Shown here: positions 11,308-64,000 of the stretch, one piece after another
How the letters are laid out: each line of letters starts with the position of its first letter
How positions within the stretch are numbered: the first letter of the stretch is position 1
NCBI GenBank assembly: GCA_964016885.1
Contig: OZ024740.1
Span: 49,290,001 to 49,354,000 of the forward strand
Reading direction: 5' to 3'
Origin: Eledone cirrhosa
Lineage: Eukaryota
Length of the DNA: 64,000 nucleotides
The notes under the pieces: model-generated
The model's input: only the letters and a program-made list of their open reading frames with translations
Databases searched by the model: none
What the model was told of the DNA's origin: nothing
Translations under genes and position numbers: made by a program

Positions 11308-11329
11308 TGATGAAATAGCAAAAACAAAG

Positions 11330-11771: not shown

Positions 11772-11859
11772 CTCGCGATAGCTCAGTTGGTAGAGCGGAG
11801 GACTGTAGTAGTATTTAACTGTTATCCTTAGGTCGATGGTTCGAATCCGTCTCGCGAGA
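11772..11859 (+). tRNA. tRNA-Tyr-GTA: tRNA-Tyr(GTA) gene A, unit 1 (intron variant TAGTATTTAACTGTT)
   Basis: Acceptor CTCGCGA/TCGCGAG plus A73, D-stem GCTC/GAGC, anticodon stem GAGGA/TCCTT, T-stem GATGG/CCGTC, intron between positions 37 and 38. Confidence 0.95.
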
Positions 11860-12057
11860 GTTGTATGTTTCTATTTTATTGCAGGTAAATAAAGAAAACG
11901 TTTTCCAAATTACTCGCTCTCAAGTATTCCAGTTTCTGGTTTAAAATAACAATTGTTTAATTTAACTGTTGTCACATAATTTTTACGCAATACAATTATA
12001 TTTACCATCTCTCGTTCCATTGTAAAAGAGAAGTACTGTTGAAGTTTACTCGATATA

Positions 12058-12220
12058 GTGCATAGCTCGGTAATATAGAGTCACTCTAGGTAGAGTCACT
12101 ACTTCTTCAAATTGAGAGATCACAGCTCTGATATTTCAATCATGTGATTAGAATGTCAGTGGACAGATTTTAAAGGCAAAACCAAGTGGGGGTACAGCCT
12201 GAGAACGACGCCTATTCTTT
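12058..12220 (+). mobile_element. RTE 3' fragment inside the array unit (every unit with both genes A and B; lost in the 4289-bp type)
   Basis: VESLLLQIERSQL*YFNHVIRMS; homologous to 4986 and 8210. Confidence 0.75.
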
Positions 12221-12488
12221 CCTATTTCTCTCTATCGGTGTTTAATATAACAGACGGTATATACTACTAATTACACTTGAAAATATATTTTATATACTAC
12301 AGTAATTGATACGAAGATAAGTGAAGAAAAATATTGGTCATTTTCAATATTATATCAGGCTGGACAACCAAACTACACGAAGTGTGTTTCAAATAAAGTA
12401 TGTGATTATTGAATCTGTAGCACAGTCATTTGACTCCATTAATGAGACATAGGTATTGTAACATTATTTTCAGTCGAATATCCAGTAC

Positions 12489-12576
12489 CTCGCGATAGCT
12501 CAGTTGGTAGAGCGGAGGACTGTAGTAGTATTTACCTGTTATCCTTAGGTCGATGGTTCGAATCCGTCTCGCGAGA
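12489..12576 (+). tRNA. tRNA-Tyr-GTA: tRNA-Tyr(GTA) gene B, unit 1
   Basis: Perfect consensus; TTTTT downstream. Confidence 0.95.
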
Positions 12577-12942
12577 GTTTATTTTTGCTATTTCATTTCA
12601 TTGGAAAAATCGTGAAATCATCTTCCAAATTACCCACAGTCCAGTATTCCTGTCTCCGTTTTAAAATAACAACTATTTAAATTGACTAAATTCTGAAAGA
12701 AGTCTGTATCAATGAAATATTGTAGAATCTGTAAATTGGGGATGCTTTCATGATTTACTCCATAGAGTGAGAAAAGCATAATACAATTCTCCTGAAAAAG
12801 ATTTGAATTCTCGATCTACAGACAAAAAGTATTTGTCATTTACGATCTCATATCAAGTCTGAGGACTAAACTATACGACGTGTGTGTTGTAAAGTATGTG
12901 ATTATTGAATCAAAAACAAGACAAAGTATTGCAGCATCATTT

Positions 12943-13015
12943 TTGGTAGAGCGGAGGACTGTAATAGTATTTATCTGTTATCCATAGATCGATGGCTCGA
13001 ATCCGTCTCGCGAGA
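12943..13015 (+). pseudogene. 5'-truncated tRNA-Tyr (copy C, one per unit)
   Basis: Starts at TTGGTAGAGC; also at ~17924, 22905, 27886, 32867, 37848, 42829, 47810, 52799, 57244, 61533. Confidence 0.85.
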
Positions 13016-13146
13016 GTTGTAAATCATAAAAAAACCTCTTCACACGACTAACTACACATTTAAATGAATCTGATTATTGAATCATTAATGACGTTATAAA
13101 CAATACATTAGTTTTGTAGCATTATTTGTAAGGGTATATTAAGGAA

Positions 13147-13228
13147 CCCGGGAAAGTTCAATTGGTTGACTCGACCACTGTAGTAGTGTTGATGTTGACA
13201 TTAGGTTGATGGTTTAAATCTCGCGAGA
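13147..13228 (+). pseudogene. Degenerate tRNA-Tyr (copy D, one per unit)
   Basis: Homologous to 9471-9556; ends in TCTCGCGAGA. Confidence 0.75.
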
Positions 13229-15146
13229 TTGTGATTTTGTGTTATATTTTAATCATTATGCTATATAAATCATGAAATCATCTTCCAAACAACAAACACG
13301 CCAGTGTTTCTGTTTGTGTTTTTAAAGTACTCATCTCTTTTGCCAGCTACTGTCAACATTTTGTTCCTGTAAATGTCACTCAACACAATTGTATATTCCA
13401 GACTACGTTAACTTTTACACATGCCTCTACCTAACAAATCTATTCTTTCAGTAAATGTGGAATACATGACATCTTTGTAAATATATTCAGATATTAGTAA
13501 CAATCATCAACTCAATGAAACGCCGACTCATTCCAGAATCTTTCTCAGCAAGACAAAAGATGTTTTACTTAATATTGTAACAACCCCAAACCTTTAACCT
13601 CTAATCTTTGTTATCCCTACATTTATCCTTCTTAATATGAGTGAAGTTGATATACTTCCATAGATGTATTCAATGTATCTCAGGATATACAAGATTGTAA
13701 GATATTCTCGCTATAAGATATTCCCCTTCTCTTTCGGTTGATTAAATATTGTAAAATGTAATGTCTTTGAAATGAAGTCGACTTCCTTAATGTGATAATA
13801 GGATAGGTGAATTGTATTTGTTATAAACAAACCATTCCAAGAATTCAGAAGTCTTCAATAAAATGTTGGTTTCTAATGGAATGGTATAGTCTGTTTTGAG
13901 GTAATACCACTGTGAAGAATGTATATTGAATAACTGAATCAATCATTTGACGTCATAAAGAAATATTTGGTATTGTGATATTTATTATATTTAGCGCAAA
14001 GACATTCTAATGTAGTTGACTTATTAATTTAAAACTTTACTTTAACACACCGTCAGAACTGATAGTGTATATGGTGGTACCATCAATTGCAGTTAAATAG
14101 GATGAAATTTCCTCTTCAAAACACGCTGCCGTCTCCTAACAAATATGAATGTACTACTATTTAAATCATTGAAACATCGCAATAGTTCTCTGTATAGACA
14201 TGAAACATCAACTGATCTAAATTGTGCCACCGATTCAAAAACACACAATTTTTTGAACAGTTTGATCGCACAATATTATCTCGAAATCTGCGACGTCAGC
14301 ATTGGTTTAAATCTAATATTCTGAATCATTAAATTAATGTAGTTGATTCAGTTCAAAAGAATTTAATATTTGAAATATTTTACCAAACGAAAGAATATTG
14401 TAATACCGTTGACTCTCGTTAATCTTGAAACATCACTATATTTAACTGTATAGAAATATAATATCTACTGATATATAGTAGTAAATACAAATGAAGCCGT
14501 TGACTCGTTAAAATTGAAAATTTATTTTAACATATAATTAATCTGGATTAATAATGTATATAGAAATGTGTCATCAATTGAAGTAAATACGAGGACATTT
14601 TGTGCTTAAAACATCCTACCGTCTCCTAACAAACCTGAATCTATTGCTATATAAATCTTTGAATACAATGTACAAACTGATTCAATGATGGCAGTTATGT
14701 CAACTGTAGTTACAGGTGTGACATTATACTGAGACTAATAACTCAGGCATGTAAATATATATCAGATAAGAAATATCTTACAACATGGAATATTCTGAGA
14801 TTCACTGAATACATTTATGGAAGCATAGTTATATATTTAGCAGGATAAATATAAGAAAAGTACATTGAAATCTGTATGTTTGGATTATAATGTGACAGTG
14901 GCATATTTTGCTGAACTTATTACATCGAAACCACTTGAAACATTCAGATATTAGTTTCTGAACGTATTTTTCAGTTCATTGTAGAAATCATTTGTCAGTT
15001 TTGAGCTAATATTATGTTGTAAGTCCAAACTACACGATATATTTGTCATTGGAAAGAATGTGATTATTGAATCATTAAATCAATCACTTTAGGTCATAAA
15101 GAAAACATTGATATTGAAGCATTACTTGTGGCGAGATTTTAAGATA

Positions 15147-15205
15147 CTCTCGATAGCACAACCGGTAGAATCCTTAGATCGACGGTTCGAAGACTTCTCG
15201 CGAGA
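15147..15205 (+). pseudogene. Internally deleted tRNA-Tyr (copy E, one per unit)
   Basis: 59 nt with GGTAGA joined to ATCCTT; also at 20128, 25109, 30090, 35071, 40052, 45033, 50014, 55159, 59448, 63737. Confidence 0.8.
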
Positions 15206-15495
15206 CTTGTGGTTCTGTATTTTGTGTTTAATCATGATGGAAAAAAATATATTGAAAAAAGCCCTGATATAGAAATTTATCAGACTGTACAACACAAGTT
15301 GATGTTGACAGTAGTCGTATAAATCCCGTAGTAATTATATTACATTGCTCGTCGTTATTCAGTTAATGTTCATACAATTGCCATAACTCCCACACCCAAA
15401 TGTAGAGTTGTCTGGCGTGCTTGACACAGGAGTGGAACGAATTCGAAAGATGACTGCATGATTTATACGTAATAAAATATCAAAAACAAAGAAAG

Positions 15496-15583
15496 TCTCG
15501 CGAGACGGATTCGAACTATCGCCCTAAGTACAACGACTAATCACTACTACAGTCCTCCGCTCTACCAACTGAGCTATCGCAAG
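15496..15583 (-). pseudogene. Minus-strand tRNA-Tyr (copy F) with a second intron type and damaged 3' exon
   Basis: Intron TAGTGATTAGTCGTT; 3' exon GTACTTAGGGCGATAG; also at 20477, 25458, 30439, 35420, 40401, 45382, 50363. Confidence 0.8.
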
Positions 15584-16128
15584 ATGCTTGTAATCAAACC
15601 AAAAATAATGCCCTTTTATGGCGTCAAATGACTGTCCTAACCATTTTATAATCACATATTTTGTAAAGATACACAAATCGTGTAGTTTCGTCGTACATTA
15701 TGGTAATATGTCGAACATTACCAATACTTTGAAACAAGAAACTAACATTGGTTCAAGTCTAATGTTCTGAATCATCCCATTAACAAGGCTGACTTAGATT
15801 CAAAGAATTTTATAAGATTTGAAATATTTTATCAATCGAAAGAGTATTCTAGTACCGTTGAATCGTTAAAACTGACAATTTACTTTGCGACTTGTATAAG
15901 TCAGTCTGGAGAGATAGTGTATACAGAGGTGTCAGTAATTGTAGTTAAAGGCTATGACATTTCCTGTTCAAAAGATTCAACCGCTCCCCATGAAGTATGA
16001 ACACGCCGTCGTTATTATATTGAAACATCAATATATTTCTTTCTATCGGAATATAATATTTACAGACGGTATATGTATATATTAATTGTATTCGAAAAGA
16101 TATTTGATATAGTACAGAAATTGCTTCA

Positions 16129-16405
16129 AAAACTAAGTTCCTGCATTTGAATCAATCCAGTCTCAGTCCATTACATGCTTCTGAGGCTTCCCCTATCGAA
16201 CTGGTTCAAGAATCTGAATATCTGGGTGTTACACTGACTCTGTGTATGATATGACCACCTGAATTGGTAAAACATGCAGTGCAATAACTTCACTAGAAAA
16301 AGATCTACAAAGTGCAAAGCTACGGTGAAACCCATCGTATTATATGGTCCAGAATCCTGGACTCTCAGTGTTGCTCGCTCAAGGAGAATTGATGGTTCCT
16401 ACAAT
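16129..16405 (+). mobile_element. Decayed RTE-like LINE post-RT fragment (one per unit)
   Basis: KTKFLHLN...IELVQESEYLG / T*IGKTCSAITSLEK / KATVKPIVLYGPESWTLSVARSRRIDGSY matches the non-LTR motifs 'V..F.YLG' and 'LLYG.E.WTL...IDG.Y'; frameshifted. Confidence 0.8.
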
Positions 16406-16752
16406 TGATGTGTAACTTTGTGCATGTTTCACCTTCATTGGAAGAATGATTCAATAAGACGAGAAGTAATTCATAAATAAATGTATGTTGAAACATGTCA
16501 GATAAACTGTACACACCTCCTCAAGCATGGCAGCTGTACGGTAACCATTCAGAACATTATTCCTGGACCACTTTTGAAGTTCTCCGTAAAAAGTATTGGT
16601 TATTTTCAATCTTATTCCAAGCTGAACGACCAAAATTACACGAAGCATGTGTTATTGTAAAGTATGGGATTATTGAATCTGTGGCGCAGTCTTTTGAGTT
16701 CATAAACAAGACATAGGTATTGTAGCATTATTTTTAGGGGAACTGCTAGTAA

Positions 16753-16840
16753 CTCGCGATAGCTCAGTTGGTAGAGCGGAGGACTGTAGTAGTATTTACC
16801 TGTTATCCTTAGGTCGATGGTTCGAATCCGTCTCGCGAGA
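16753..16840 (+). tRNA. tRNA-Tyr-GTA: tRNA-Tyr(GTA) gene A, unit 2
   Basis: Perfect 88-nt consensus. Confidence 0.95.
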
Positions 16841-17469
16841 GTTGTATGTTTCTATTTTATTGCAGGTAAATAAAGAAAACGTTTTCCAAATTACTCGCTC
16901 TCTAGTATTCCAGTTTCTGTTTTAAAATAACAATTGTTTAAATTAACTGTTGTCACATAATTTTTACGCAATACAATTATATTTACCATCTCTCGTTCCA
17001 TTGTAAAAGAGAAGTACTGTAGAAGTTTACTCGATATAGTGCATAGCTCGGTAATATAGAGTCACTCTAGGTAGAGTCACTACTTCTTCAAATTGAGAGA
17101 TCACAGCTCTAATATTTCAATCATGTGATTAGAATGTCAGTGGACAGATTTTAAAGGCAAAACCAAGTGGGGGTACAGCCTGAGAACGACGCCTATTCTT
17201 TCCTATTTCTCTCTATCGGTGTTTAATATAACAGACGGTATATACTACTAATTACACTTGAAAATATATTTTATATACTACAGTAATTGATACGAAGATA
17301 AGTGAAGAAAAATATTGGTCATTTTCAATATTATATCAGGCTGGACAACCAAACTACACGAAGTGTGTTTCAAATAAAGTATGTGATTATTGAATCTGTA
17401 GCACAGTCATTTGACTCCATTAATGAGACATAGGTATTGTAACATTATTTTCAGTCGAATATCCTGTAC

Positions 17470-17557
17470 CTCGCGATAGCTCAGTTGGTAGAGCGGAGGA
17501 CTGTAGTAGTATTTACCTGTTATCCTTAGGTCGATGGTTCGAATCCGTCTCGCGAGA
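17470..17557 (+). tRNA. tRNA-Tyr-GTA: tRNA-Tyr(GTA) gene B, unit 2
   Basis: Perfect 88-nt consensus. Confidence 0.95.
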
Positions 17558-20500
17558 GTTTGTTTTTGCTATTTCATTTCATTGGGAAAATCGTGAAATC
17601 ATCTTCCAAATTACCCACAGTCCAGTATTCCTGTCTCCGTTTTAAAATAACAACTTTTTAAATTGACTAAATTCTGAAAGAAGTCTGTATCAATGAAATA
17701 TTGTAGAATCTGTAAATTGGGGATGCTTTCATGATTTACTCCATAGAGTGAGAAAAGCATAATACAATTCTCCTGAAAAAGATTTGAATTCTCGATCTAC
17801 AGACAAAAAGTATTTGTCATTTACGATCTCATATCAAGTCTGAGGACTAAACTATACGACGTGTGTGTTGTAAAGTATGTGATTATTGAATCAAAAACAA
17901 GACAAAGTATTGCAGCATCATTTTTGGTAGAGCGGAGGACTGTAATAGTATTTATCTGTTATCCATAGATCGATGGCTCGAATCCGTCTCGCGAGAGTTG
18001 TAAATCATAAAAAAACCTCTTCACACGACTAACTACACATTTAAATGAATCTGATTATTGAATCATTAATGACGTTATAAACAATACATTGGTTTTGTAG
18101 CATTATTTGTAAGGGTATATTAAGGAACCCGGGAAAGTTCAATTGGTTGACTCGACCACTGTAGTAGTGTTGATGTTGACATTAGGTTGATGGTTTAAAT
18201 CTCGCGAGATTGTGATTTTGTGTTATATTTTAATCATTATGCTATATAAATCATGAAATCATCTTCCAAACAACAAACACGCCAGTGTTTCTGTTTGTGT
18301 TTTTAAAGTACTCATCTCTTTTGCCAGCTACTGTCAACATTTTGTTCCTGTAAATGTCACTCAACACAATTGTATATTCCAGACTACGTTAACTTTTACA
18401 CATGCCTCTACCTAACAAATCTATTCTTTCAGTAAATGTGGAATACATGACATCTTTGTAAATATATTCAGATATTAGTAACAATCATCAACTCAATGAA
18501 ACGCCGACTCATTCCAGAATCTTTCTCAGCAAGACAAAAGATGTTTTACTTAATATTGTAACAACCCCAAACCTTTAACCTCTAATCTTTGTTATCCCTA
18601 CATTTATCCTTCTTAATATGAGTGAGGTTGATATACTTCCATAGATGTATTCAATGAATCTCAGGATATACAAGATTGTAAGATATTCTCGCTATAAGAT
18701 ATTCCCCTTCTCTTTCGGTTGATTAAATATTGTAAAATGTAATGTCTTTGAAATGAAGTCGACTTCCTTAATGTGATAATAGGATAGGTGAATTGTATTT
18801 GTTATAAACAAACCATTCCAAGAATTCAGAAGTCTTCAATAAAATGTTGGTTTCTAATGGAATGGTATAGTCTGTTTTGAGGTAATACCACTGTGAAGAA
18901 TGTATATTGAATAACTGAATCAATCATTTGACGTCATAAAGAAATATTTGGTATTGTGATATTTATTATATTTAGCGCAAAGACATTCTAATGTAGTTGA
19001 CTTATTAATTTAAAACTTTACTTTAACACACCGTCAGAACTGATAGTGTATATGGTGGTACCATCAATTGCAGTTAAATAGGATGAAATTTCCTCTTCAA
19101 AACACGCTGCCGTCTCCTAACAAATATGAATGTACTACTATTTAAATCATTGAAACATCGCAATAGTTCTCTGTATAGACATGAAATATCAACTGATCTA
19201 AATTGTGCCACCGATTCAAAAACACACAATTTTTTGAACAGTTTGATCGCACAATATTATCTCGAAATTTGCGACGTCAGCATTGGTTTAAATCTAATAT
19301 TCTGAATCATTAAATTAATGTAGTTGATTCAGTTCAAAAGAATTTAATATTTGAAATATTTTACCAAACGAAAGAATATTGTAATACCGTTGACTCTCGT
19401 TAATCTTGAAACATCACTATATTTAACTGTATAGAAATATAATATCTACTGATATATAGTAGTAAATACAAATGAAGCCGTTGACTCGTTAAAATTGAAA
19501 ATTTATTTTAACATATAATTAATCTGGATTAATAATGTATATAGAAATGTGTCATCAATTGAAGTAAATACGAGGACATTTTGTGCTTAAAACATCCTAC
19601 CGTCTCCTAACAAACCTGAATCTATTGCTATATAAATCTTTGAATACAATGTACAAACTGATTCAATGATGGCAGTTATGTCAACTGTAGTTACAGGTGT
19701 GACATTATACTGAGACTAATAACTCAGGCATGTAAATATATATCAGATAAGAAATATCTTACAACATGGAATATTCTGAGATTCACTGAATACATTTATG
19801 GAAGCATAGTTATATATTTAGCAGGATAAATATAAGAAAAGTACATTGAAATCTGTATGTTTGGATTATAATGTGACAGTGGCATATTTTGCTGAACTTA
19901 TTACATCGAAACCACTTGAAACATTCAGATATTAGTTTCTGAACGTATTTTTCAGTTCATTGTAGAAATCATTTGTCAGTTTTGAGCTAATATTATGTTG
20001 TAAGTCCAAACTACACGATATATTTGTCATTGGAAAGAATGTGATTATTGAATCATTAAATCAATCACTTTAGGTCATAAAGAAAACATTGATATTGAAG
20101 CATTACTTGTGGCGAGATTTTAAGATACTCTCGATAGCACAACCGGTAGAATCCTTAGATCGACGGTTCGAAGACTTCTCGCGAGACTTGTGGTTCTGTA
20201 TTTTGTGTTTAATCATGATGGAAAAAAATATATTGAAAAAAGCCCTGATATAGAAATTTATCAGACTGTACAACACAAGTTGATGTTGACAGTAGTCGTA
20301 TAAATCCCGTAGTAATTATATTACATTGCTCGTCGTTATTCAGTTAATGTTCATACAATTGCCATAACTCCCACACCCAAATGTAGAGTTGTCTGGCGTG
20401 CTTGACACAGGAGTGGAACGAATTCGAAAGATGACTGCATGATTTATACGTAATAAAATATCAAAAACAAAGAAAGTCTCGCGAGACGGATTCGAACTAT

Positions 20501-21733
20501 CGCCCTAAGTACAACGACTAATCACTACTACAGTCCTCCGCTCTACCAACTGAGCTATCGCAAGATGCTTGTAATCAAACCAAAAATAATGCCCTTTTAT
20601 GGCGTCAAATGACTGTCCTAACCATTTTATAATCACATATTTTGTAAAGATACACAAATCGTGTAGTTTCGTCGTACATTATGGTAATATGTCGAACATT
20701 ACCAATACTTTGAAACAAGAAACTAATATTGGTTCAAGTCTAATGTTCTGAATCATCCCATTAACAAGGCTGACTTAGATTCAAAGAATTTTATAAGATT
20801 TGAAATATTTTATCAATCGAAAGAGTATTCTAGTACCGTTGAATCGTTAAAACTGACAATTTACTTTGCGACTTGTATAAGTCAGTCTGGAGAGATAGTG
20901 TATACAGAGGTGTCAGTAATTGTAGTTAAAGGCTATGAAATTTCCTGTTCAAAAGATTCAACCGCTCCCCATGAAGTATGAACACGCCGTCGTTATTATA
21001 TTGAAACATCAATATATTTCTTTCTATCGGAATATAATATTTACAGACGGTATATGTATATATTAATTGTATTCGAAAAGATATTTGATATAGTACAGAA
21101 ATTGCTTCAAAAACTAAGTTCCTGCATTTGAATCAATCCAGTCTCAGTCCATTACATGCTTCTGAGGCTTCCCCTATCGAACTGGTTCAAGAATCTGAAT
21201 ATCTGGGTGTTACACTGACTCTGTGTATGATATGACCACCTGAATTGGTAAAACATGCAGTGCAATAACTTCACTAGAAAAAGATCTACAAAGTGCAAAG
21301 CTACGGTGAAACCCATCGTATTATATGGTCCAGAATCCTGGACTCTCAGTGTTGCTCGCTCAAGGAGAATTGATGGTTCCTACAATTGATGTGTAACTTT
21401 GTGTATGTTTCACCTTCATTGGAAGAATGATTCAATAAGACGAGAAGTAATTCATAAATAAATGTATGTTGAAACATGTCAGATAAACTGTACACACCTC
21501 CTCAAGCATGGCAGCTGTACGGTAACCATTCAGAACATTATTCCTGGACCACTTTTGAAGTTCTCCGTAAAAAGTATTGGTTATTTTCAATCTTATTCCA
21601 AGCTGAACGACCAAAATTACACGAAGCATGTGTTATTGTAAAGTATGGGATTATTGAATCTGTGGCGCAGTCTTTTGAGTTCATAAACAAGACATAGGTA
21701 TTGTAGCATTATTTTTAGGGGAACTGCTAGTAA

Positions 21734-21821
21734 CTCGCGATAGCTCAGTTGGTAGAGCGGAGGACTGTAGTAGTATTTACCTGTTATCCTTAGGTCGATG
21801 GTTCGAATCCGTCTCGCGAGA
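21734..21821 (+). tRNA. tRNA-Tyr-GTA: tRNA-Tyr(GTA) gene A, unit 3
   Basis: Perfect 88-nt consensus. Confidence 0.95.
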
Positions 21822-22450
21822 GTTGTATGTTTCTATTTTATTGCAGGTAAATAAAGAAAACGTTTTCCAAATTACTCGCTCTCTAGTATTCCAGTTTCTG
21901 TTTTAAAATAACAATTGTTTAAATTAACTGTTGTCACATAATTTTTACGCAATACAATTATATTTACCATCTCTCGTTCCATTGTAAAAGAGAAGTACTG
22001 TAGAAGTTTACTCGATATAGTGCATAGCTCGGTAATATAGAGTCACTCTAGGTAGAGTCACTACTTCTTCAAATTGAGAGATCACAGCTCTAATATTTCA
22101 ATCATGTGATTAGAATGTCAGTGGACAGATTTTAAAGGCAAAACCAAGTGGGGGTACAGCCTGAGAACGACGCCTATTCTTTCCTATTTCTCTCTATCGG
22201 TGTTTAATATAACAGACGGTATATACTACTAATTACACTTGAAAATATATTTTATATACTACAGTAATTGATACGAAGATAAGTGAAGAAAAATATTGGT
22301 CATTTTCAATATTATATCAGGCTGGACAACCAAACTACACGAAGTGTGTTTCAAATAAAGTATGTGATTATTGAATCTGTAGCACAGTCATTTGACTCCA
22401 TTAATGAGACATAGGTATTGTAACATTATTTTCAGTCGAATATCCTGTAC

Positions 22451-22538
22451 CTCGCGATAGCTCAGTTGGTAGAGCGGAGGACTGTAGTAGTATTTACCTG
22501 TTATCCTTAGGTCGATGGTTCGAATCCGTCTCGCGAGA
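22451..22538 (+). tRNA. tRNA-Tyr-GTA: tRNA-Tyr(GTA) gene B, unit 3
   Basis: Perfect 88-nt consensus. Confidence 0.95.
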
Positions 22539-51715: not shown

Positions 51716-52344
51716 GTTGTATGTTTCTATTTTATTGCAGGTAAATAAAGAAAACGTTTTCCAAATTACTCGCTCTCTAGTATTCCAGTTTCTGTTTTAA
51801 AATAACAATTGTTTAAATTAACTGTTGTCACATAATTTTTACGCAATACAATTATATTTACCATCTCTCGTTCCATTGTAAAAGAGAAGTACTGTTGAAG
51901 TTTACTCGATATAGTGCATAGCTCGGTAATATAGAGTCACTCTAGGTAGAGTCACTACTTCTTCAAATTGAGAGATCACAGCTCTGATATTTCAATCATG
52001 TGATTAGAATGTCAGTGGACAGATTTTAAAGGCAAAACCAAGTGGGGGTACAGCCTGAGAACGACGCCTATTCTTTCCTATTTCTCTCTATCGGTGTTTA
52101 ATATAACAGACGGTATATACTACTAATTACACTTGAAAATATATTTTATATACTACAGTAATTGATACGAAGATAAGTGAAGAAAAATATTGGTCATTTT
52201 CAATATTATATCAGGCTGGACAACCAAACTACACGAAGTGTGTTTCAAATAAAGTATGTGATTATTGAATCTGTAGCACAGTCATTTGACTCCATTAATG
52301 AAACATAGGTATTGTAACATTATTTTCAGTCGAATATCCAGTAC

Positions 52345-52432
52345 CTCGCGATAGCTCAGTTGGTAGAGCGGAGGACTGTAGTAGTATTTACCTGTTATCC
52401 TTAGGTCGATGGTTCGAATCCGTCTCGCGAGA
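52345..52432 (+). tRNA. tRNA-Tyr-GTA: tRNA-Tyr(GTA) gene B, unit 9
   Basis: Perfect 88-nt consensus. Confidence 0.95.
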
Positions 52433-54411
52433 GTTTGTTTTTGCTATTTCATTTCATTGGGAAAATCGTGAAATCATCTTCCAAATTACCCACAGTCCAG
52501 TATTCCTGTCTCCGTTTTAAAATAACAACTTTTTAAATTGACTAAATTCTGAAAGAAGTCTGTATCAATGAAATATTGTAGAATCTGTAAATTGGGGATG
52601 CTTTCATGATTTACTCCATAGATTGAGAAAAGCATAATACAATTCTCCTGAAAAAGATTTGAATTCTCGATCTACAGACAAAAAATATTTGTCATTTACG
52701 ACCTCATATCAAGTCTGAGGACTAAACTATACGACGTGTGTGTTGTAAAGTATGTGATTATTGAATCAAAAACAAGACAAAGTATTGCAGCATCATTTTT
52801 GGTAGAGCGGAGGACTGTAATAGTATTTATCTGTTATCCATAGATCGATGGCTCGAATCCGTCTCGCGAGAGTTGTAAATCATAAAAAAACCTCTTCACA
52901 CGACTAACTACACATTTAAATGAATCTGATTATTGAATCATTAATGACGTTATAAACAATACATTGGTTTTGTAGCATTATTTGTAAGGGTATATTAAGG
53001 AACCCGGGAAAGTTCAATTGGTTGACTCGACCACTGTAGTAGTGTTGATGTTGACATTAGGTTGATGGTTTAAATCTCGTGAGATTGTGATTTTGTGTTA
53101 TATTTTAATCATTATGCTATATAAATCATGAAATCATCTTCCAAACAACAAACACGCCAGTGTTTCTGTTTGTGTTTTTAAAGTACTCATCTCTTTTGCC
53201 AGCTACTGTCAACATTTTGTTCCTGTAAATGTCACTCAACACAATTGTATATTCCAGACTACGTTAACTTTTACACATGCCTCTACCTAACAAATCTATT
53301 CTTTCAGTAAATGTGGAATACATGACATCTTTGTAAATATATTCAGATATTAGTAACAATCATCAACTCAATGAAACGCCGACTCATTCCAGAATCTTTC
53401 TCAGCAAGACAAAAGATGTTTTACTTAATATTGTAACAACCCCAAACCTTTAACCTCTAATCTTTGTTATCCCTACATTTATCCTTCTTAATATGAGTGA
53501 GGTTGATATACTTCCATAGATGTATTCAATGTATCTCAGGATATACAAGATTGTAAGATATTCTCGCTATAAGATATTCCCCTTCTCTTTCGGTTGATTA
53601 AATATTATAAAATGTAATGTCTTTGAAATGAAGTCGACTTCCTTAATGTGATAATAGGATAGGTGAATTGTATTTGTTATAAACAAACCATTCCAAGAAT
53701 TCAGAAGTCTTCAATAAAATGTTGGTTTCTAATGGAATGGTATAGTCTGTTTTGAGGTAATACCACTGTGAAGAATGTATATTGAATAACTGAATCAATC
53801 ATTTGACGTCATAAAGAAATATTTGGTATTGTGATATTTATTATATTTAGCGCAAAGACATTCTAATGTAGTTGACTTATTAATTTAAAACTTTACTTTA
53901 ACACACCGTCAGAACTGATAGTGTATATGGTGGTACCATCAATTGCAGTTAAATAGGATGAAATTTCCTCTTCAAAACACGCTGTCGTCTCCTAACAAAT
54001 ATGAATGTACTACTATTTAAATCATTGAAACATCGCAATAGTTCTCTGTATAGACATGAAACATCAACTGATCTAAATTGTGCCACCAATTCAAAAACAC
54101 ACAATTTTTTGAACAGTTTGATCACACAATATTATCTCGAAATTTGCGACGTCAGCATTGGTTTAAATCTAATATTCTGAATCATTAAATTAATGTAGTT
54201 GATTCAGTTCAAAAGAATTTAATATTTGAAATATTTTACCAAACGAAAGAATATTGTAATACCGTTGACTCTCGTTAATCTTGAAACATCACTATATTTA
54301 ACTGTATAGAAATATAATATCTACTGATATATAGTAGTAAATACAAATGAAGCCGTTGACTCGTTAAAATTGAAAATTTATTTTAACATATAATTAATCT
54401 GGATTAATAAT

Positions 54412-54551
54412 TGTTTCTACTTTTGGCACAAGGCCAGCAATTATCCAGTGCATTACTGGTACTTTATTTTATCGACCCCGTAAGGATGAAAGGCAAAGTT
54501 AACCTCGGCGGGATTTGAACTCAAACCATAAAGGGGCGTAACTGGGCGTAA
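54412..54551 (-). mobile_element. 5'-truncated SINE inserted in a single array unit, 16-bp TSD
   Basis: TSD AATCTGGATTAATAAT at 54396-54411 and 54552-54567; all other units have the empty site. Confidence 0.95.
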
Positions 54552-55514
54552 AATCTGGATTAATAATGTATATAGAAATGTGTCATCAATTGAAGTAAAT
54601 ACGAGGACATTTTGTGCTTAAAACATCCTACCGTCTCCTAACAAACCTGAATCTATTGCTATATAAATCTTTGAATACAATGTACAAACTGATTCAATGA
54701 TGCCAGTTATGTCAACTGTAGTTACAGGTGTGACATTATACTAAGACTAATAACTCAGGCATGTAAATATATATCAGATAAGAAATATCTTACAACATGG
54801 AATATTCTGAGATTCACTGAATACATTTATGGAAGCATAGTTATATATTTAGCAGGATAAATATAAGAAAAGTACATTGAAATCTGTATGTTTGGATTAT
54901 AATGTGACAGTGGCATATTTTGCTGAACTTATTACATCGAAACCACTTGAAACATTCAGATATTAGTTTCTGAACGTATTTTTCAGTTCATTGTAGAAAT
55001 CATTTGTCAGTTTTGAGCTAATATTATGTTGTAAGTCCAAACTACACGATATATTTGTCATTGGAAAGAATGTGATTATTGAATCATTAAATCAATCACT
55101 TTAGGTCATAAAGAAAACATTGATATTGAAGCATTACTTGTGGCGAGATTTTAAGATACTCTCGATAGCACAACCGGTAGAATCCTTAGATCGACGGTTC
55201 GAAGACTTCTCGCGAGACTTGTGGTTCTGTATTTTGTGTTTAATCATGATGGAAAAAAATATATTGAAAAAAGCCCTGATATAGAAATTTATCAGACTGT
55301 ACAACACAAGTTGATGTTGACAGTAGTCGTATAAATCCCGTAGTAATTATATTACATTGCTCGTCGTTATTCAGTTAATGTTCATACAATTGCCATAACT
55401 CCCACACCCAAATGACGGTGTAATGGAGAGTTGTCTGGCGTGCTTGACACAGGAGTGGAAAGAATTCGAAAGATGACTGCATGATTTATACGTAATAAAA
55501 TATCAAAAACAAAG

Positions 55515-55602
55515 TCTCGCGAGACGGATTCGAACCATCGACCTAAGGATAAAGACTAATCACTACTACATTCCTCCGCTCTACCAACTCAGCTATCGCA
55601 AG
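55515..55602 (-). pseudogene. Copy F variant: canonical 3' exon, A32, C13>G D-stem break
   Basis: Reverse complement CTTGCGATAGCTGAGTTGG...GGAATGTAG-tagtgattagtcttt-ATCCTTAGGTCGATGG... Confidence 0.7.
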
Positions 55603-56789
55603 ATGCTTGTAATCAAACCAAAAATAATGCCCTTTTATGGCGTCAAATGACTGTCCTAACCATTTTATAATCACATATTTTGTAAAGATACACAAATCGT
55701 GTAGTTTCGTCGTACATTATGGTAATATGTCGAACATTACCAATACTTTGAAACAAGAAACTAACATTGGTTCAAGTCTAATGTTCTGAATCATCCCATT
55801 AACAAGGCTGACTTAGATTCGAAGAATTTTATAAGATTTGAAATATTTTATCAATCGAAAGAGTATTCTAGTACCGTTGAATCGTTAAAACTGACAATTT
55901 ACTTTGCGACTTGTATAAGTCAGTCTGGAGAGATAGTGTATACAGAGGTGTCATGTTGTAGTTAAATGCTATGAAATTTCCTGTTCAAAAGATTCAACCG
56001 CTCCCCATGAAGTATGAACACGCCGTCGTTATTATATTGAAACATCAATATATTTCTTTCTATCGGAATATAATATTTACAGACGGTATATGTATATATT
56101 AATTGTATTCGAAAAGATATTTGATATAGTACAGAAATTGCTTCAAAAACTAAGTTCCTGCATTTGAATCAATCCACTCTCAGTCCATTACATGCTTCTG
56201 AGGCTTCACCTATCGAACTGGTTCAAGAATCTGAATATCTGGGTGTTACACTGACTCTGTGTATGATATGACCACCTGAATTGGTAAAACGTGCAGTGCA
56301 ATAACTTCACTAGAAAAAGATCTACAAAGTGCAAAGCTACGGTGAAACCCATCGTATTATATGGTCCAGAATCCTGGACTCTCAGTGTTGCTCGCTCAAG
56401 GAGAATTGATGGTTCCTACATCAAGACATTACGTGTGTAACTTTGTGCATGTTTCACCTTCATTGGAAGAATGATTCAATAAGACGAGAAGTAATTGATA
56501 TAAAGATTCATAAATAAATGTATGTTGAAACATGTCAGATAAACTGTACACACCTCCTCAAGCATGGCAGCTGTACGGTAACCATTCAGAACATTATTCC
56601 TGGACCACTTTTGAAGTTCTCCGTAAAAAGTATTGGTTATTTTCAATCTTATTCCAAGCTGAACGACCAAAATTACACGAAGCATGTGTTATTGTAAAGT
56701 ATGGGATTATTGAATCTGTGGCGCAGTCTTTTGAGTTCATAAACAAGACATAGGTATTGTAGCATTATTTTTATTGGAACTGCTAGTAA

Positions 56790-56877
56790 CTCGCGATAGC
56801 TCAGTTGGTAGAGCGGAGGACTGTAGTAGTATTTACCTGTTATCCTTAGGTCGATGGTTCGAATCCGTCTCGCGAGA
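56790..56877 (+). tRNA. tRNA-Tyr-GTA: tRNA-Tyr(GTA), A/B hybrid locus, unit 10
   Basis: Perfect consensus; gene-A 5' flank and gene-B 3' flank. Confidence 0.95.
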
Positions 56878-59803
56878 GTTTGTTTTTGCTATTTCATTTC
56901 ATTGGGAAAATCGTGAAATCATCTTCCAAATTACCCACAGTCCAGTATTCCTGTCTCCGTTTTAAAATAACAACTTTTTAAATTGACTAAATTCTGAAAG
57001 AAGTCTGTATCAATGAAATATTGTAGAATCTGTAAATTGGGGATGCTTTCATGATTTACTCCATAGAGTGAGAAAAGCATAATACAATTCTCCTGAAAAA
57101 GATTTGAATTCTCGATCTACAGACAAAAAGTATTTGTCATTTACGATCTCATATCAAGTCTGAGGACTAAACTATACGACGTGTGTGTTGTAAAGTATGT
57201 GATTATTGAATCAAAAACAAGACAAAGTATTGCAGCATCATTTTTGGTAGAGCGGAGGACTGTAATAGTATTTATCTGTTATCCATAGATCGATGGCTCG
57301 AATCCGTCTCGCGAGAGTTGTAAATCATAAAAAAACCTCTTCACACGACTAACTACACATTTAAATGAATCTGATTATTGAATCATTAATGACGTTATAA
57401 ACAATACATTGGTTTTGTAGCATTATTTGTAAGGGTATATTAAGGAACCCGGGAAAGTTCAATTGGTTGACTCGACCACTGTAGTAGTGTTGATGTTGAC
57501 ATTAGGTTGATGGTTTAAATCTCGCGAGATTGTGATTTTGTGTTATATTTTAATCATTATGCTATATAAATCATGAAATCATCTTCCAAACAACAAACAC
57601 GCCAGTGTTTCTGTTTGTGTTTTTAAAGTACTCATCTCTTTTGCCAGCTACTGTCAACATTTTGTTCCTGTAAATGTCACTCAACACAATTGTATATTCC
57701 AGACTACGTTAACTTTTACACATGCCTCTACCTAACAAATCTATTCTTTCAGTAAATGTGGAATACATGACATCTTTGTAAATATATTCAGATATTAGTA
57801 ACAATCATCAACTCAATGAAACGCCGACTCATTCCAGAATCTTTCTCAGCAAGACAAAAGATGTTTTACTTAATATTGTAACAACCCCAAACCTTTAACC
57901 TCTAACCTTTGTTATCCCTACATTTATCCTTCTTAATATGAGTGAAGTTGATATACTTCCATAGATGTATTCAATGTATCTCAGGATATACAAGATTGTA
58001 AGATATTCTCGCTATAAGATATTCCCCTTCTCTTTCGGTTGATTAAATATTGTAAAATGTAATGTCTTTGAAATGAAGTCGACTTCCTTAATGTGATAAT
58101 AGGATAGGTGAATTGTATTTGTTATAAACAAACCATTCCAAGAATTCAGAAGTCTTCAATAAAATGTTGGTTTCTAATGGAATGGTATAGTCTGTTTTGA
58201 GGTAATACCACTGTGAAGAATGTATATTGAATAACTGAATAAATCATTTGACGTCATAAAGAAATATTTGGTATTGTGATATTTATTATATTTAGCGCAA
58301 AGACATTCTAATGTAGTTGACTTATTAATTTAAAACTTTACTTTAACACACCGTCAGAACTGATAGTGTATATGGTGGTACCATCAATTGCAGTTAAATA
58401 GGATGAAATTTCCTCTTCAAAACACGCTGTCGTCTCCTAACAAATATGAATGTACTACTATTTAAATCATTGAAACATCGCAATAGTTCTCTCTATAGAC
58501 ATGAAACATCAACTGATCTAAATTGTGCCACCAATTCAAAAACACACAATTTTTTGAACAGTTTGATCGCACAATATTATCTCGAAATTTGCGACGTCAG
58601 CATTGGTTTAAATCTAATATTCTGAATCATTAAATTAATGTAGTTGATTCAGTTCAAAAGAATTTAATATTTGAAATATTTTGCCAAACGAAAGAATATT
58701 GTAATACCGTTGACTCTCGTTAATCTTGAAACATCACTATATTTAACTGTATAGAAATATAATATCTACTGATATATAGTAGTAAATACAAATGAAGCCG
58801 TTGACTCGTTAAAATTGAAAATTTATTTTAACATATAATTAATCTGGATTAATAATGTATATAGAAATGTGTCATCAATTGAAGTAAATACGAGGACATT
58901 TTGTGCTTAAAACATCCTACCGTCTCCTAACAAACCTGAATCTATTGCTATATAAATCTTTGAATACAATGTACAAACTGATTCAATGATGGCAGTTATG
59001 TCAACTGTAGTTACAGGTGTGACATTATACTGAGACTAATAACTCAGGCATGTAAATATATATCAGATAAGAAATATCTTACAACATGGAATATTCTGAG
59101 ATTCACTGAATACATTTATGGAAGCATAGTTATATATTTAGCAGGATAAATATAAGAAAAGTACATTGAAATCTGTATGTTTGGATTATAATGTGACAGT
59201 GGCATATTTTGCTGAACTTATTACATCGAAACCACTTGAAACATTCAGATATTAGTTTCTGAACGTATTTTTCAGTTCATTGTAGAAATCATTTGTCAGT
59301 TTTGAGCTAATATTATGTTGTAAGTCCAAACTACACGATATATTTGTCATTGGAAAGAATGTGATTATTGAATCATTAAATCAATCACTTTAGGTCATAA
59401 AGAAAACATTGATATTGAAGCATTACTTGTGGCGAGATTTTAAGATACTCTCGATAGCACAACCGGTAGAATCCTTAGATCGACGGTTCGAAGACTTCTC
59501 GCGAGACTTGTGGTTCTGTATTTTGTGTTTAATCATGATGGAAAAAAATATATTGAAAAAAGCCCTGATATAGAAATTTATCAGACTGTACAACACAAGT
59601 TGATGTTGACAGTAGTCGTATAAATCCCGTAGTAATTATATTACATTGCTCGTCGTTATTCAGTTAATGTTCATACAATTGCCATAACTCCCACACCCAA
59701 ATGACGGTGTAATGGAGAGTTGTCTGGCGTGCTTGACACAGGAGTGGAAAGAATTCGAAAGATGACTGCATGATTTATACGTAATAAAATATCAAAAACA
59801 AAG

Positions 59804-59891
59804 TCTCGCGAGACGGATTCGAACCATCGACCTAAGGATAAAGACTAATCACTACTACATTCCTCCGCTCTACCAACTGAGCTATCGCAAG
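59804..59891 (-). tRNA. tRNA-Tyr-GTA: Copy F variant: near-intact tRNA-Tyr(GTA) with A32 and U3.G70; function uncertain
   Basis: All stems pair; A- and B-boxes intact; intron TAGTGATTAGTCTTT; T-run downstream. Confidence 0.55.
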
Positions 59892-61078
59892 ATGCTTGTA
59901 ATCAAACCAAAAATAATGCCCTTTTATGGCGTCAAATGACTGTCCTAACCATTTTATAATCACATATTTTGTAAAGATACACAAATCGTGTAGTTTCGTC
60001 GTACATTATGGTAATATGTCGAACATTACCAATACTTTGAAACAAGAAACTAACATTGGTTCAAGTCTAATGTTCTGAATCATCCCATTAACAAGGCTGA
60101 CTTAGATTCGAAGAATTTTATAAGATTTGAAATATTTTATCAATCGAAAGAGTATTCTAGTACCGTTGAATCGTTAAAACTGACAATTTACTTTGCGACT
60201 TGTATAAGTCAGTCTGGAGAGATAGTGTATACAGAGGTGTCATGTTGTAGTTAAATGCTATGAAATTTCCTGTTCAAAAGATTCAACCGCTCCCCATGAA
60301 GTATGAACACGCCGTCGTTATTATATTGAAACATCAATATATTTCTTTCTATCGGAATATAATATTTACAGACGGTATATGTATATATTAATTGTATTCG
60401 AAAAGATATTTGATATAGTACAGAAATTGCTTCAAAAACTAAGTTCCTGCATTTGAATCAATCCACTCTCAGTCCATTACATGCTTCTGAGGCTTCACCT
60501 ATCGAACTGGTTCAAGAATCTGAATATCTGGGTGTTACACTGACTCTGTGTATGATATGACCACCTGAATTGGTAAAACGTGCAGTGCAATAACTTCACT
60601 AGAAAAAGATCTACAAAGTGCAAAGCTACGGTGAAACCCATCGTATTATATGGTCCAGAATCCTGGACTCTCAGTGTTGCTCGCTCAAGGAGAATTGATG
60701 GTTCCTACATCAAGACATTACGTGTGTAACTTTGTGCATGTTTCACCTTCATTGGAAGAATGATTCAATAAGACGAGAAGTAATTGATATAAAGATTCAT
60801 AAATAAATGTATGTTGAAACATGTCAGATAAACTGTACACACCTCCTCAAGCATGGCAGCTGTACGGTAACCATTCAGAACATTATTCCTGGACCACTTT
60901 TGAAGTTCTCCGTAAAAAGTATTGGTTATTTTCAATCTTATTCCAAGCTGAACGACCAAAATTACACGAAGCATGTGTTATTGTAAAGTATGGGATTATT
61001 GAATCTGTGGCGCAGTCTTTTGAGTTCATAAACAAGACATAGGTATTGTAGCATTATTTTTATTGGAACTGCTAGTAA

Positions 61079-61166
61079 CTCGCGATAGCTCAGTTGGTAG
61101 AGCGGAGGACTGTAGTAGTATTTACCTGTTATCCTTAGGTCGATGGTTCGAATCCGTCTCGCGAGA
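61079..61166 (+). tRNA. tRNA-Tyr-GTA: tRNA-Tyr(GTA), A/B hybrid locus, unit 11
   Basis: Perfect consensus; gene-A 5' flank and gene-B 3' flank. Confidence 0.95.
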
Positions 61167-64000
61167 GTTTGTTTTTGCTATTTCATTTCATTGGGAAAAT
61201 CGTGAAATCATCTTCCAAATTACCCACAGTCCAGTATTCCTGTCTCCGTTTTAAAATAACAACTTTTTAAATTGACTAAATTCTGAAAGAAGTCTGTATC
61301 AATGAAATATTGTAGAATCTGTAAATTGGGGATGCTTTCATGATTTACTCCATAGAGTGAGAAAAGCATAATACAATTCTCCTGAAAAAGATTTGAATTC
61401 TCGATCTACAGACAAAAAGTATTTGTCATTTACGATCTCATATCAAGTCTGAGGACTAAACTATACGACGTGTGTGTTGTAAAGTATGTGATTATTGAAT
61501 CAAAAACAAGACAAAGTATTGCAGCATCATTTTTGGTAGAGCGGAGTACTGTAATAGTATTTATCTGTTATCCATAGATCGATGGCTCGAATCCGTCTCG
61601 CGAGAGTTGTAAATCATAAAAAAACCTCTTCACACGACTAACTACACATTTAAATGAATCTGATTATTGAATCATTAATGACGTTATAAACAATACATTG
61701 GTTTTGTAGCATTATTTGTAAGGGTATATTAAGGAACCCGGGAAAGTTCAATTGGTTGACTCGACCACTGTAGTAGTGTTGATGTTGACATTAGGTTGAT
61801 GGTTTAAATCTCGCGAGATTGTGATTTTGTGTTATATTTTAATCATTATGCTATATAAATCATGAAATCATCTTCCAAACAACAAACACGCCAGTGTTTC
61901 TGTTTGTGTTTTTAAAGTACTCATCTCTTTTGCCAGCTACTGTCAACATTTTGTTCCTGTAAATGTCACTCAACACAATTGTATATTCCAGACTACGTTA
62001 ACTTTTACACATGCCTCTACCTAACAAATCTATTCTTTCAGTAAATGTGGAATACATGACATCTTTGTAAATATATTCAGATATTAGTAACAATCATCAA
62101 CTCAATGAAACGCCGACTCATTCCAGAATCTTTCTCAGCAAGACAAAAGATGTTTTACTTAATATTGTAACAACCCCAAACCTTTAACCTCTAATCTTTG
62201 TTATCCCTACATTTATCCTTCTTAATATGAGTGAGGTTGATATACTTCCATAGATGTATTCAATGAATCTCAGGATATACAAGATTGTAAGATATTCTCG
62301 CTATAAGATATTCCCCTTCTCTTTCGGTTGATTAAATATTGTAAAATGTAATGTCTTTGAAATGAAGTCGACTTCCTTAATGTGATAATAGGATAGGTGA
62401 ATTGTATTTGTTATAAACAAACCATTCCAAGAATTCAGAAGTCTTCAATAAAATGTTGGTTTCTAATGGAATGGTATAGTCTGTTTTGAGGTAATACCAC
62501 TGTGAAGAATGTATATTGAATAACTGAATAAATCATTTGACGTCATAAAGAAATATTTGGTATTGTGATATTTATTATATTTAGCGCAAAGACATTCTAA
62601 TGTAGTTGACTTATTAATTTAAAACTTTACTTTAACACACCGTCAGAACTGATAGTGTATATGGTGGTACCATCAATTGCAGTTAAATAGGATGAAATTT
62701 CCTCTTCAAAACACGCTGTCGTCTCCTAACAAATATGAATGTACTACTATTTAAATCATTGAAACATCGCAATAGTTCTCTGTATAGACATGAAACATCA
62801 ACTGATCTAAATTGTGCCACCAATTCAAAAACACACAATTTTTTGAACAGTTTGATCGCACAATATTATCTCGAAATTTGCGACGTCAGCATTGGTTTAA
62901 ATCTAATATTCTGAATCATTAAATTAATGTAGTTGATTCAGTTCAAAAGAATTTAATATTTGAAATATTTTGCCAAACGAAAGAATATTGTAATACCGTT
63001 GACTCTCGTTAATCTTGAAACATCACTATATTTAACTGTATAGAAATATAATATCTACTGATATATAGTAGTAAATACAAATGAAGCCGTTGACTCGTTA
63101 AAATTGAAAATTTATTTTAACATATAATTAATCTGGATTAATAATGTATATAGAAATGTGTCATCAATTGAAGTAAATACGAGGACATTTTGTGCTTAAA
63201 ACATCCTACCGTCTCCTAACAAACCTGAATCTATTGCTATATAAATCTTTGAATACAATGTACAAACTGATTCAATGATGGCAGTTATGTCAACTGTAGT
63301 TACAGGTGTGACATTATACTGAGACTAATAACTCAGGCATGTAAATATATATCAGATAAGAAATATCTTACAACATGGAATATTCTGAGATTCACTGAAT
63401 ACATTTATGGAAGCATAGTTATATATTTAGCAGGATAAATATAAGAAAAGTACATTGAAATCTGTATGTTTGGATTATAATGTGACAGTGGCATATTTTG
63501 CTGAACTTATTACATCGAAACCACTTGAAACATTCAGATATTAGTTTCTGAACGTATTTTTCAGTTCATTGTAGAAATCATTTGTCAGTTTTGAGCTAAT
63601 ATTATGTTGTAAGTCCAAACTACACGATATATTTGTCATTGGAAAGAATGTGATTATTGAATCATTAAATCAATCACTTTAGGTCATAAAGAAAACATTG
63701 ATATTGAAGCATTACTTGTGGCGAGATTTTAAGATACTCTCGATAGCACAACCGGTAGAATCCTTAGATCGACGGTTCGAAGACTTCTCGCGAGACTTGT
63801 GGTTCTGTATTTTGTGTTTAATCATGATGGAAAAAAATATATTGAAAAAAGCCCTGATATAGAAATTTATCAGACTGTACAACACAAGTTGATGTTGACA
63901 GTAGTCGTATAAATCCCGTAGTAATTATATTACATTGCTCGTCGTTATTCAGTTAATGTTCATACAATTGCCATAACTCCCACACCCAAATGTAGAGTTG

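What the first reader, a model, noticed from the sequence alone, without database searches (positions are those of the whole stretch)
11772..64000. Single-isotype tRNA-Tyr macrosatellite built as a higher-order repeat
Seen: 20 intact tRNA-Tyr(GTA) genes with identical exons in ~5-kb units. Each standard unit is itself made of six diverged tRNA-plus-flank monomers in both orientations and two LINE fossils. No other tRNA isotype appears in 64 kb. Known: tandem tDNA arrays exist (Xenopus tDNA repeat, human chr1 tDNA VNTR, Arabidopsis Tyr-Tyr-Ser cluster) and those examples are mixed-isotype. Inference: a recent gene-dosage expansion of one tRNA, probably variable in copy number.
Basis: partly seen in the sequence, partly recalled or inferred. 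Interest (0 to 1): 0.75.

Follow-up and report, generated by a model that had tools for sequence, protein, structure and literature searches.

The report
Tandem tyrosine tRNA gene array
This is a real run of fifteen 5-kb repeats that holds most of this animal's tyrosine tRNA genes among broken copies, and because the same genome stacks its tRNA genes for other amino acids the same way, it is likely ordinary tandem gene turnover rather than a tyrosine-specific device.

Summary
There are 20 exact-exon tRNA-Tyr(GTA) genes with a 15-nt intron in 11772-64000. They sit in ~4.98-kb units of six monomers (2 intact, 4 decayed) with two LINE fragments. The array runs past the window: 15 units, 73.5 kb, inside a ~140-kb older cluster of diverged Tyr monomers. 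It holds 31 of the 39 exact-exon Tyr genes found genome-wide. The inference of a dosage expansion of one tRNA is weak. The same genome has comparable arrays for Thr, Gly, Ile (93 of the first 100 matches listed), Ser, Leu and Asp+Glu, and this scan noted Met, Val and Pro arrays there before. Single-isotype arrays are also in print (Phytophthora, Arabidopsis Pro and Cys). Unequal crossover is recorded in the sequence: two units carry a hybrid gene and lack the 717 bp between two identical genes. Variants between units pile up 5-15 nt upstream of the intact genes only (5 sites vs 0.72 expected), a footprint of past transcription. No RNA was available. Verdict: new member of a known kind, modest interest.

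The parts
11772..64000 (+). Homogeneous higher-order repeat: units 1-10 and part of unit 11 of 15 (array continues to window-equivalent 85316 = G000:C1:49375316)
1..11771 (.). Older, diverged flank of tRNA-Tyr monomers in both orientations; 5586-10084 is a 77-92% identical, largely colinear earlier copy of the unit
8757..8844 (+). Intact tRNA-Tyr(GTA) in the old flank (B type)
11772..11859 (+). Monomer A: intact tRNA-Tyr(GTA), 15-nt intron, T4 run at +15; repeated at 16753, 21734, 26715, 31696, 36677, 41658, 46639, 51628
12489..12576 (+). Monomer B: intact tRNA-Tyr(GTA), T5 run at +6; repeated at 17470, 22451, 27432, 32413, 37394, 42375, 47356, 52345
12020..12210 (+). LINE fragment 1: decayed 3' end of a LINE ORF2 (RTE-like by recalled motifs); dispersed relatives 78-87% identical
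12943..13015 (+). Monomer C: 5'-truncated tRNA-Tyr pseudogene
13149..13228 (+). Monomer D: degenerate tRNA-Tyr (72% identical)
15170..15205 (+). Monomer E: degenerate tRNA-Tyr, only the 3' part still aligns
15496..15583 (-). Monomer F: inverted tRNA-Tyr, anticodon kept, anticodon stem mispaired; no cloverleaf predicted
16123..16403 (+). LINE fragment 2: end of the reverse-transcriptase region of a LINE; matches a dispersed copy (L054) that scores on RVT_1 below Pfam's cut-off
54396..54551 (.). High-copy SINE-like insertion with a 16-bp target-site duplication, in unit 9 only
56790..56877 (+). Hybrid gene of unit 10: upstream flank of A, downstream flank of B (717 bp lost between the two genes)
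61079..61166 (+). Hybrid gene of unit 11, duplicate of the same deletion

Best explanation
This is the genome's main tRNA-Tyr gene cluster, a tandem array of intact and decayed copies that likely grew by unequal crossing-over and likely still supplies ordinary tRNA-Tyr, as one of many amino-acid-sorted tRNA arrays in this genome. Shown: a tRNA-plus-flank monomer was duplicated locally many times in both orientations, most copies decayed, LINE pieces landed among them, and one 5-kb block with two intact genes was then repeated 15 times. Inferred: the identical 88-bp genes serve as crossover substrates; purifying selection keeps the mature tRNA identical to the dispersed genes; the two intact genes per unit were transcribed in the germ line while the array diversified; copy number drifts rather than being selected for tyrosine demand.
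For: (1) Layered structure: a core of units 1-44 substitutions apart, flanked by 77-92% copies of the unit and lone monomers. Variants are shared by neighbouring units, e.g. units 1-8 vs 9-15. (2) Units 10 and 11 carry an A/B hybrid gene and lack the 717 bp between A and B: a crossover inside or just beside the gene, later duplicated. (3) Exons are identical to 8 dispersed genes on C8 and C15 whose introns differ. Among 23 monomers, divergence is 0.08 in exons vs 0.18-0.50 in flanks. (4) 5 of 90 variant sites between units lie in the 40 bp just upstream of A and B, at -15, -14, -12, -10 and -5 (0.72 expected; Poisson P 9e-4; permutation P 0.009); 0 lie in the 80 equivalent bp of pseudogenes C-F (1.45 expected). 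PMC6130373 (passages) reports a peak 10-15 nt upstream of active tRNA genes. (5) Other arrays in G000: Thr-AGT, 19 of 24 exact matches in one cluster with a 3.67-kb period; Gly-GCC, 2.47-kb units with one intact and two decayed monomers; Ile-AAT, 93 of the first 100 listed of 136 matches; Ser-TGA, 1.685-kb units, and Leu; Asp+Glu, 1.34-kb units. (6) In the Arabidopsis Tyr-Tyr-Ser array, Tyr dosage selection was tested and judged unlikely (PMC2886086, section 17).
Against: No RNA or Pol III data were obtained, so present-day expression is unshown. Within the 15 young units the intact genes are not significantly more conserved than the rest (2 variant sites vs 3.2 expected). The upstream-variant signal rests on 5 sites (4 if the adjacent pair is one event, P 0.006); the pseudogene control alone is not significant. 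It repeated nominally in 3 of 5 other array sets (Gly, Ser, Ile-minus; not Asp, Ile-plus), and in two of those three the anchor also caught second monomers. The 23 monomers are not independent. Array genes have only T4-T5 runs downstream, against longest runs of 5-19 T in the 8 dispersed genes, as in the silenced Arabidopsis clusters (PMC7544208, passages). Tyr codon usage was not measured.
Confidence: 0.72

Rival explanations
1. Silent or conditional reserve: the dispersed genes with long T-tracts supply most tRNA-Tyr, and the array is repressed in most cells and opened only in the germ line or special tissues.
For: Short T4-T5 terminators in all 31 array-locus genes, longer runs in 7 of 8 dispersed genes. 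Four of six monomers are decayed. Arabidopsis clusters with shorter T-tracts are silent (PMC7544208, passages). The upstream mutation footprint only requires germ-line transcription.
Against: The locus holds 31 of 39 exact-exon genes found. A conserved AT-rich block at -40..-21 is kept (divergence 0.18). The plant paper itself calls the cis-elements of clustered genes well conserved.
Confidence: 0.15
2. Tyrosine-specific dosage adaptation, for example for tyrosine-rich skin or structural proteins of cephalopods (reflectins; recalled, not from a call).
For: The array multiplies intact Tyr genes about five-fold over the dispersed set (31 vs 8).
Against: Thr, Gly, Ile, Ser, Leu and Asp+Glu are arrayed too, Ile with more copies. 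Two-thirds of the amplified monomers are dead. A paper search for such a link listed nothing relevant, and its term 'reflectin' also matches 'reflecting'.
Confidence: 0.07
3. Passive macrosatellite: the unit was amplified by drift and its tRNA genes are unexpressed passengers.
For: No significant deficit of variants in A and B among young units. The unit carries LINE debris and took a SINE-like insertion.
Against: Upstream variant excess at intact genes only. A and B are identical over 88 bp while their flanks are about 80-86% alike.
Confidence: 0.05
4. Assembly over-expansion of a smaller array.
For: Units 4-7 differ by only 1-3 bases. The rough depth ratio is about 9 (152/17), below 15.
Against: Most units carry their own or neighbour-shared variants, indels, a private insertion and a private deletion. 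No N in 264 kb. The depth ratio is 5-26 under any of four normalisers.
Confidence: 0.04

Closest known systems
Same-gene tandem tRNA arrays of Phytophthora infestans (PMC9584435; passages of sections 9 and 18 seen)
   Same: Single-isotype tandem arrays as a genome-wide habit (about 64% of tRNA genes; 271 tRNA-Cys in one array), most families on one chromosome, ascribed to unequal crossing-over.
   Different: Units there are 0.5-0.85 kb in the examples given. Here the unit is 5 kb, itself a multimer of intact and dead monomers with LINE fragments, in an animal.
Arabidopsis Tyr-Tyr-Ser array (PMC2886086, abstract and section 17; PMC7544208, passages)
   Same: A tRNA-Tyr doublet amplified as part of a larger unit by unequal crossing-over; non-functional copies toward the ends; shorter T-tracts than dispersed genes; dosage selection judged unlikely.
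   Different: Mixed isotype there. Silencing was shown there and is untested here.
Arabidopsis Pro homoclusters and tRNA-Cys cluster (PMC13578239 passages; PMC10701932 abstract)
   Same: Single isotype, repeating units, a pseudogene and transposon marks, copy-number variation among accessions (Cys).
   Different: The Cys cluster is much smaller (four genes, 0.4-kb units); no higher-order layer described in what I read.
Human 1q23.3 tDNA VNTR (PMC4041453, abstract and outline)
   Same: Multi-kb unit (7.3 kb) in comparable copy number (9-43 per allele).
   Different: GC-rich and CTCF-bound, with demonstrated CNV; mixed isotypes (recalled). Here about 33% GC, one isotype, CNV not measured.
Alpha-satellite higher-order repeats (recalled)
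   Same: Diverged monomers repeated as a near-identical block, with monomeric, more diverged flanks.
   Different: Monomers here are tRNA genes with flanks of unequal length; no sign of a centromeric role was tested.

Membership tests
Eukaryotic intron-containing tRNA-Tyr(GTA) gene | Cloverleaf with GTA anticodon and a short intron just 3' of it | tested here: met
   ARAGORN with introns; fold of the unspliced gene; Rfam 59.8 bits
Eukaryotic intron-containing tRNA-Tyr(GTA) gene | C1:G72 pair and A73 discriminator (identity elements, recalled) | tested here: met
   Read from the sequence; same exons in 8 dispersed genes
Eukaryotic intron-containing tRNA-Tyr(GTA) gene | Oligo-T terminator downstream | tested here: met
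   T4 at +15 (A), T5 at +5/+6 (B); minimal length
Eukaryotic intron-containing tRNA-Tyr(GTA) gene | Transcribed by Pol III, spliced and charged | not testable with these tools
   No RNA holder listed; only the indirect mutation footprint
Homogeneous tDNA cluster (PMC2888827: same amino acid, under 1000 nt apart) | Adjacent tDNAs of one isotype within 1 kb | tested here: met
   A and B start 717 bp apart; only Tyr-derived copies in the window
tRNA homocluster (PMC13578239: 5 or more genes in 5 kb, one isotype) | At least 5 genes per 5-kb window | tested here: inconclusive
   3 ARAGORN calls per unit; 6 if decayed monomers count
Higher-order tandem repeat / macrosatellite | Multi-kb head-to-tail units far more alike than their internal monomers | tested here: met
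   Standard units 99.3-100% to unit 5, altered units 97-99%; monomer-plus-flank matches within a unit 68-86%, short tRNA-only matches up to 94%
tDNA VNTR | Unit number varies between alleles or individuals | tested here: inconclusive
   Rough depth ratio about 9 vs 15 assembled; two of three RAD samples show a variant absent from all 15 units; no copy count possible
LINE (non-LTR retrotransposon) fragment | Homology to a reverse-transcriptase ORF of a dispersed family | tested here: met
   Fragment 2: tblastn E 6e-13 to L054:3924-4346, which hits RVT_1 at E 2e-4, below the curated cut-off; dispersed copies 71-83%. Fragment 1: dispersed relatives and ORF2-end motifs only; clade name recalled

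The most novel reading that the evidence does not exclude
This genome (likely an octopod) runs a two-tier tRNA system: a few dispersed housekeeping genes with long terminators, plus amino-acid-sorted higher-order arrays with their own intron and short terminators that act as separately switchable, copy-number-variable modules (germ line or special tissues). The Tyr array's private 15-nt intron would be a natural barcode for testing whether whole tDNA arrays are switched as units in an animal.
Probability: 0.15. Interest if true: 0.62.

Novelty: new member of a known kind. Interest (0 to 1): 0.27.

Why it matters
As it stands it is a clean case of tRNA gene birth, decay and re-amplification, with a recorded crossover between two identical genes and a mutation footprint that points to germ-line transcription after amplification. 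It also shows that most genes of one isotype can sit in a repeat that short-read assemblies would collapse. The wider pattern, a genome whose tRNA genes are largely stacked by amino acid, matters more than this one array. I did not find it described for cephalopods in three searches (listings only), but the same pattern is in print for an oomycete. Because array and dispersed genes share exons but differ in introns, their relative output is directly measurable.

Tried and rejected
Leu(TAG) and Phe calls: artefacts of ignoring the intron. Long-intron Asn calls and a Thr call in the 264-kb scan: misreads of decayed Tyr copies. Special isodecoder: rejected, the exons equal those of the dispersed genes. 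Tandem Repeats Finder: period limit 500, uninformative. Rfam tRNA search of G000: scored only 63 of about 552,000 candidates; 9 of its 13 best hits that I fetched were one tRNA-like repeat with varying anticodons, so it is no census. Expression: no RNA holder listed; no evidence either way. Read depth across the array's left junction could not be obtained; a tRNA-free part of unit 9 was laid, and Logan depth is not a copy number and X1 may be the assembly's own sample. RAD depth (1-5x, off-target) could not be normalised. tblastn of an unrelated LINE ORF2 end from L054 against the unit gave no hit. No stop-free frame of 130 aa or more lies in the window. Replication of the upstream footprint in other arrays was mixed. 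Genome-wide patterns list only the first 100 places, so the list of arrays is partial. Supplements of the cited papers were not read.
Full report
Observation. The finding is real. With intron search on, ARAGORN calls the repeated genes tRNA-Tyr(GTA) with a 15-nt intron; without it they are misread as Leu. Exactly 20 genes with both exons identical lie in 11772-64000. All 39 Rfam tRNA hits in the window coincide with matches to the Tyr gene. Each standard 4981-bp unit has six tRNA-derived monomers: A and B intact and 717 bp apart, C truncated, D and E degenerate, F inverted and mispaired. Two LINE fragments lie between them. One matches a dispersed copy that scores on the reverse-transcriptase profile, below Pfam's cut-off. 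The other has dispersed relatives and ORF2-end motifs (clade recalled).

Extent. The window is G000:C1:49290001-49354000 of a 3.0-Gb genome. I fetched 100 kb on each side. The homogeneous array has 15 units, from 11772 to window-equivalent 85316, with no N in 264 kb. Units differ by 1 to 44 substitutions, and variants are shared by neighbours. On both sides lie 77-92% copies of the unit and lone, more decayed Tyr monomers in both orientations, from about -13 kb to +128 kb. Beyond are transposon fragments and dinucleotide microsatellites; the window has no stop-free frame of 130 aa.

Share of the gene family. An exact exon-1 pattern matched 58 places in G000, 46 in this locus. An intron-spanning pattern matched 50, 39 here. 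I fetched all 14 outside places (12 loci). They hold 8 genes with exactly the same exons and 3 with one change; the locus holds 31. So 31 of 39 exact-exon genes are here. The dispersed genes have different introns and mostly long T-tracts (longest run 5-19), while array genes have T4 or T5. Isodecoders too different for these patterns would be missed.

How it grew. Units 10 and 11 have one gene with A's upstream flank and B's downstream flank and lack the 717 bp between. This is what an unequal crossover in or beside two identical genes leaves, followed by a duplication (inference). Unit 9 alone carries a 156-bp SINE-like insertion with a 16-bp target-site duplication. A young core with old edges fits repeated rounds of local amplification.

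Is it real DNA? Contigs of run X1 cover the unit at word depth 152-157. Low-depth contigs on the same stretch match flank paralogues by their differences: one at 17.2 fits the single copy at 9972-10084; others are at 6, 29 and 30. The ratio is about 9, range 5-26. The tool warns that this depth is no copy number, and X1 may be the source sample, so it shows multi-copy status only. Three RAD samples of the same species label carry the unit at low depth. Two show a variant at 54034 (3 of 8 and 2 of 3 reads) that none of the 15 units has.

Are the genes used? No RNA was available. Indirectly, 5 of 90 variant sites between units fall in the 20 bp upstream of A and B (0.72 expected, P 9e-4; permutation P 0.009) and none in the same windows of C-F. 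Among 23 monomers, divergence is 0.47 at -20..-1, 0.18 at -40..-21 and 0.08 in exons. PMC6130373 (passages) ties such a peak to tRNA gene activity. Against: few sites; no significant deficit of variants in A and B among young units (2 vs 3.2); replication in only 3 of 5 other array sets, two of them with imperfect anchoring.

Not special to tyrosine. G000 has a Thr-AGT cluster with a 3.67-kb period; a Gly-GCC array of 2.47-kb units, each with one intact and two decayed monomers; an Ile-AAT array in two opposed halves, 93 of the first 100 listed matches; a Ser-TGA array and a Leu cluster; and a two-isotype Asp+Glu array. Earlier scan notes report Met, Val and Pro arrays in this genome (not checked by me). 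My reading was formed before that look-up.

Comparison with print. Homoclusters are a defined class (PMC2888827 and PMC13578239, passages). Phytophthora infestans keeps about 64% of its tRNA genes in same-gene tandem arrays (PMC9584435, passages). The Arabidopsis Cys cluster is single-isotype with a pseudogene, transposon marks and variable unit number (PMC10701932, abstract). For the Arabidopsis Tyr-Tyr-Ser array, unequal crossing-over and drift were favoured and Tyr dosage judged unlikely (PMC2886086, abstract and section 17); those clusters are silenced and have shorter T-tracts (PMC7544208, passages). Three bivalves have 17-30 Tyr genes (PMC9679248, table passage). PMC12652284 and PMC4041453 were seen as abstract and outline; PMC10886601 as passages, not relevant. 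Searches for a cephalopod description listed nothing to the point; searches supplied the precedents. I did not see a 5-kb six-monomer single-isotype unit described, but the library is partial.

Verdict. Most likely (0.72) the working, partly decayed main Tyr cluster of a genome that arrays many tRNA types, grown by unequal crossover with drifting copy number. A conditional reserve (0.15), Tyr-specific dosage (0.07), passive satellite (0.05) and assembly excess (0.04) remain. New member of a known kind; interest 0.27.

Noticed in passing
G000:C4:315870256-316066000 (L076-L085): tRNA-Ile(AAT) array in two opposed halves: about 1.495-kb units on - (about two ARAGORN calls per unit) and 1.58-kb units on +; at least 93 matches.
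   Followed up: partly
G000:C1:243648000-243700100 (L036-L038, L070-L072): Dense tRNA-Thr(AGT) cluster with a 3.67-kb higher-order period; decayed copies show changed anticodons (TGT, ACT, AAT).
   Followed up: partly
G000:C1:141.18-141.28 Mb (L055-L059): tRNA-Gly(GCC) array, 2.47-kb units with one intact and two decayed monomers.
   Followed up: partly
G000:C3:277.237-277.310 Mb (L060-L066): Asp(GTC) and Glu(TTC) on opposite strands in 1.34-kb units over at least 70 kb: not all arrays here are single-isotype.
   Followed up: partly
G000:C1:441.187-441.218 Mb and C1:153.75-153.83 Mb: Ser(TGA) array of 1.685-kb units at 99%; Leu(CAG/TAG) cluster.
   Followed up: partly
G000:C1:325.63-325.66 Mb (L092-L094): Cluster with about 3.7-kb period found by a Leu/Ser-type D-arm pattern but called Met(CAT) by ARAGORN; possibly intron-bearing Leu misread, unresolved.
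   Followed up: no
window 12020-12210; L076-L078; L025; L099; L060: The same LINE 3'-end family sits in the Tyr unit, in the 1.495-kb Ile units (82%) and near other tRNA loci; simple abundance or a preference for tRNA loci was not tested.
   Followed up: no
window 55515-55602 and 59804-59891: Monomer F of units 9 and 10 has an exon 2 closer to the intact gene than in other units (9 variant sites in F vs 1.6 expected), suggesting gene conversion or an older haplotype.
   Followed up: no
window 1-64000 vs L004-L020: The tRNA cluster lacks the dinucleotide microsatellites that fill the DNA on both sides.
   Followed up: no
G000:C15:40641147, 40669826 and C9:20776477: Half tRNA-Tyr genes: exon 1 joined to unrelated sequence.
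   Followed up: no
L039-L048: A dispersed tRNA-like repeat with one shared body and varying anticodons dominates the Rfam tRNA hits of the genome.
   Followed up: no
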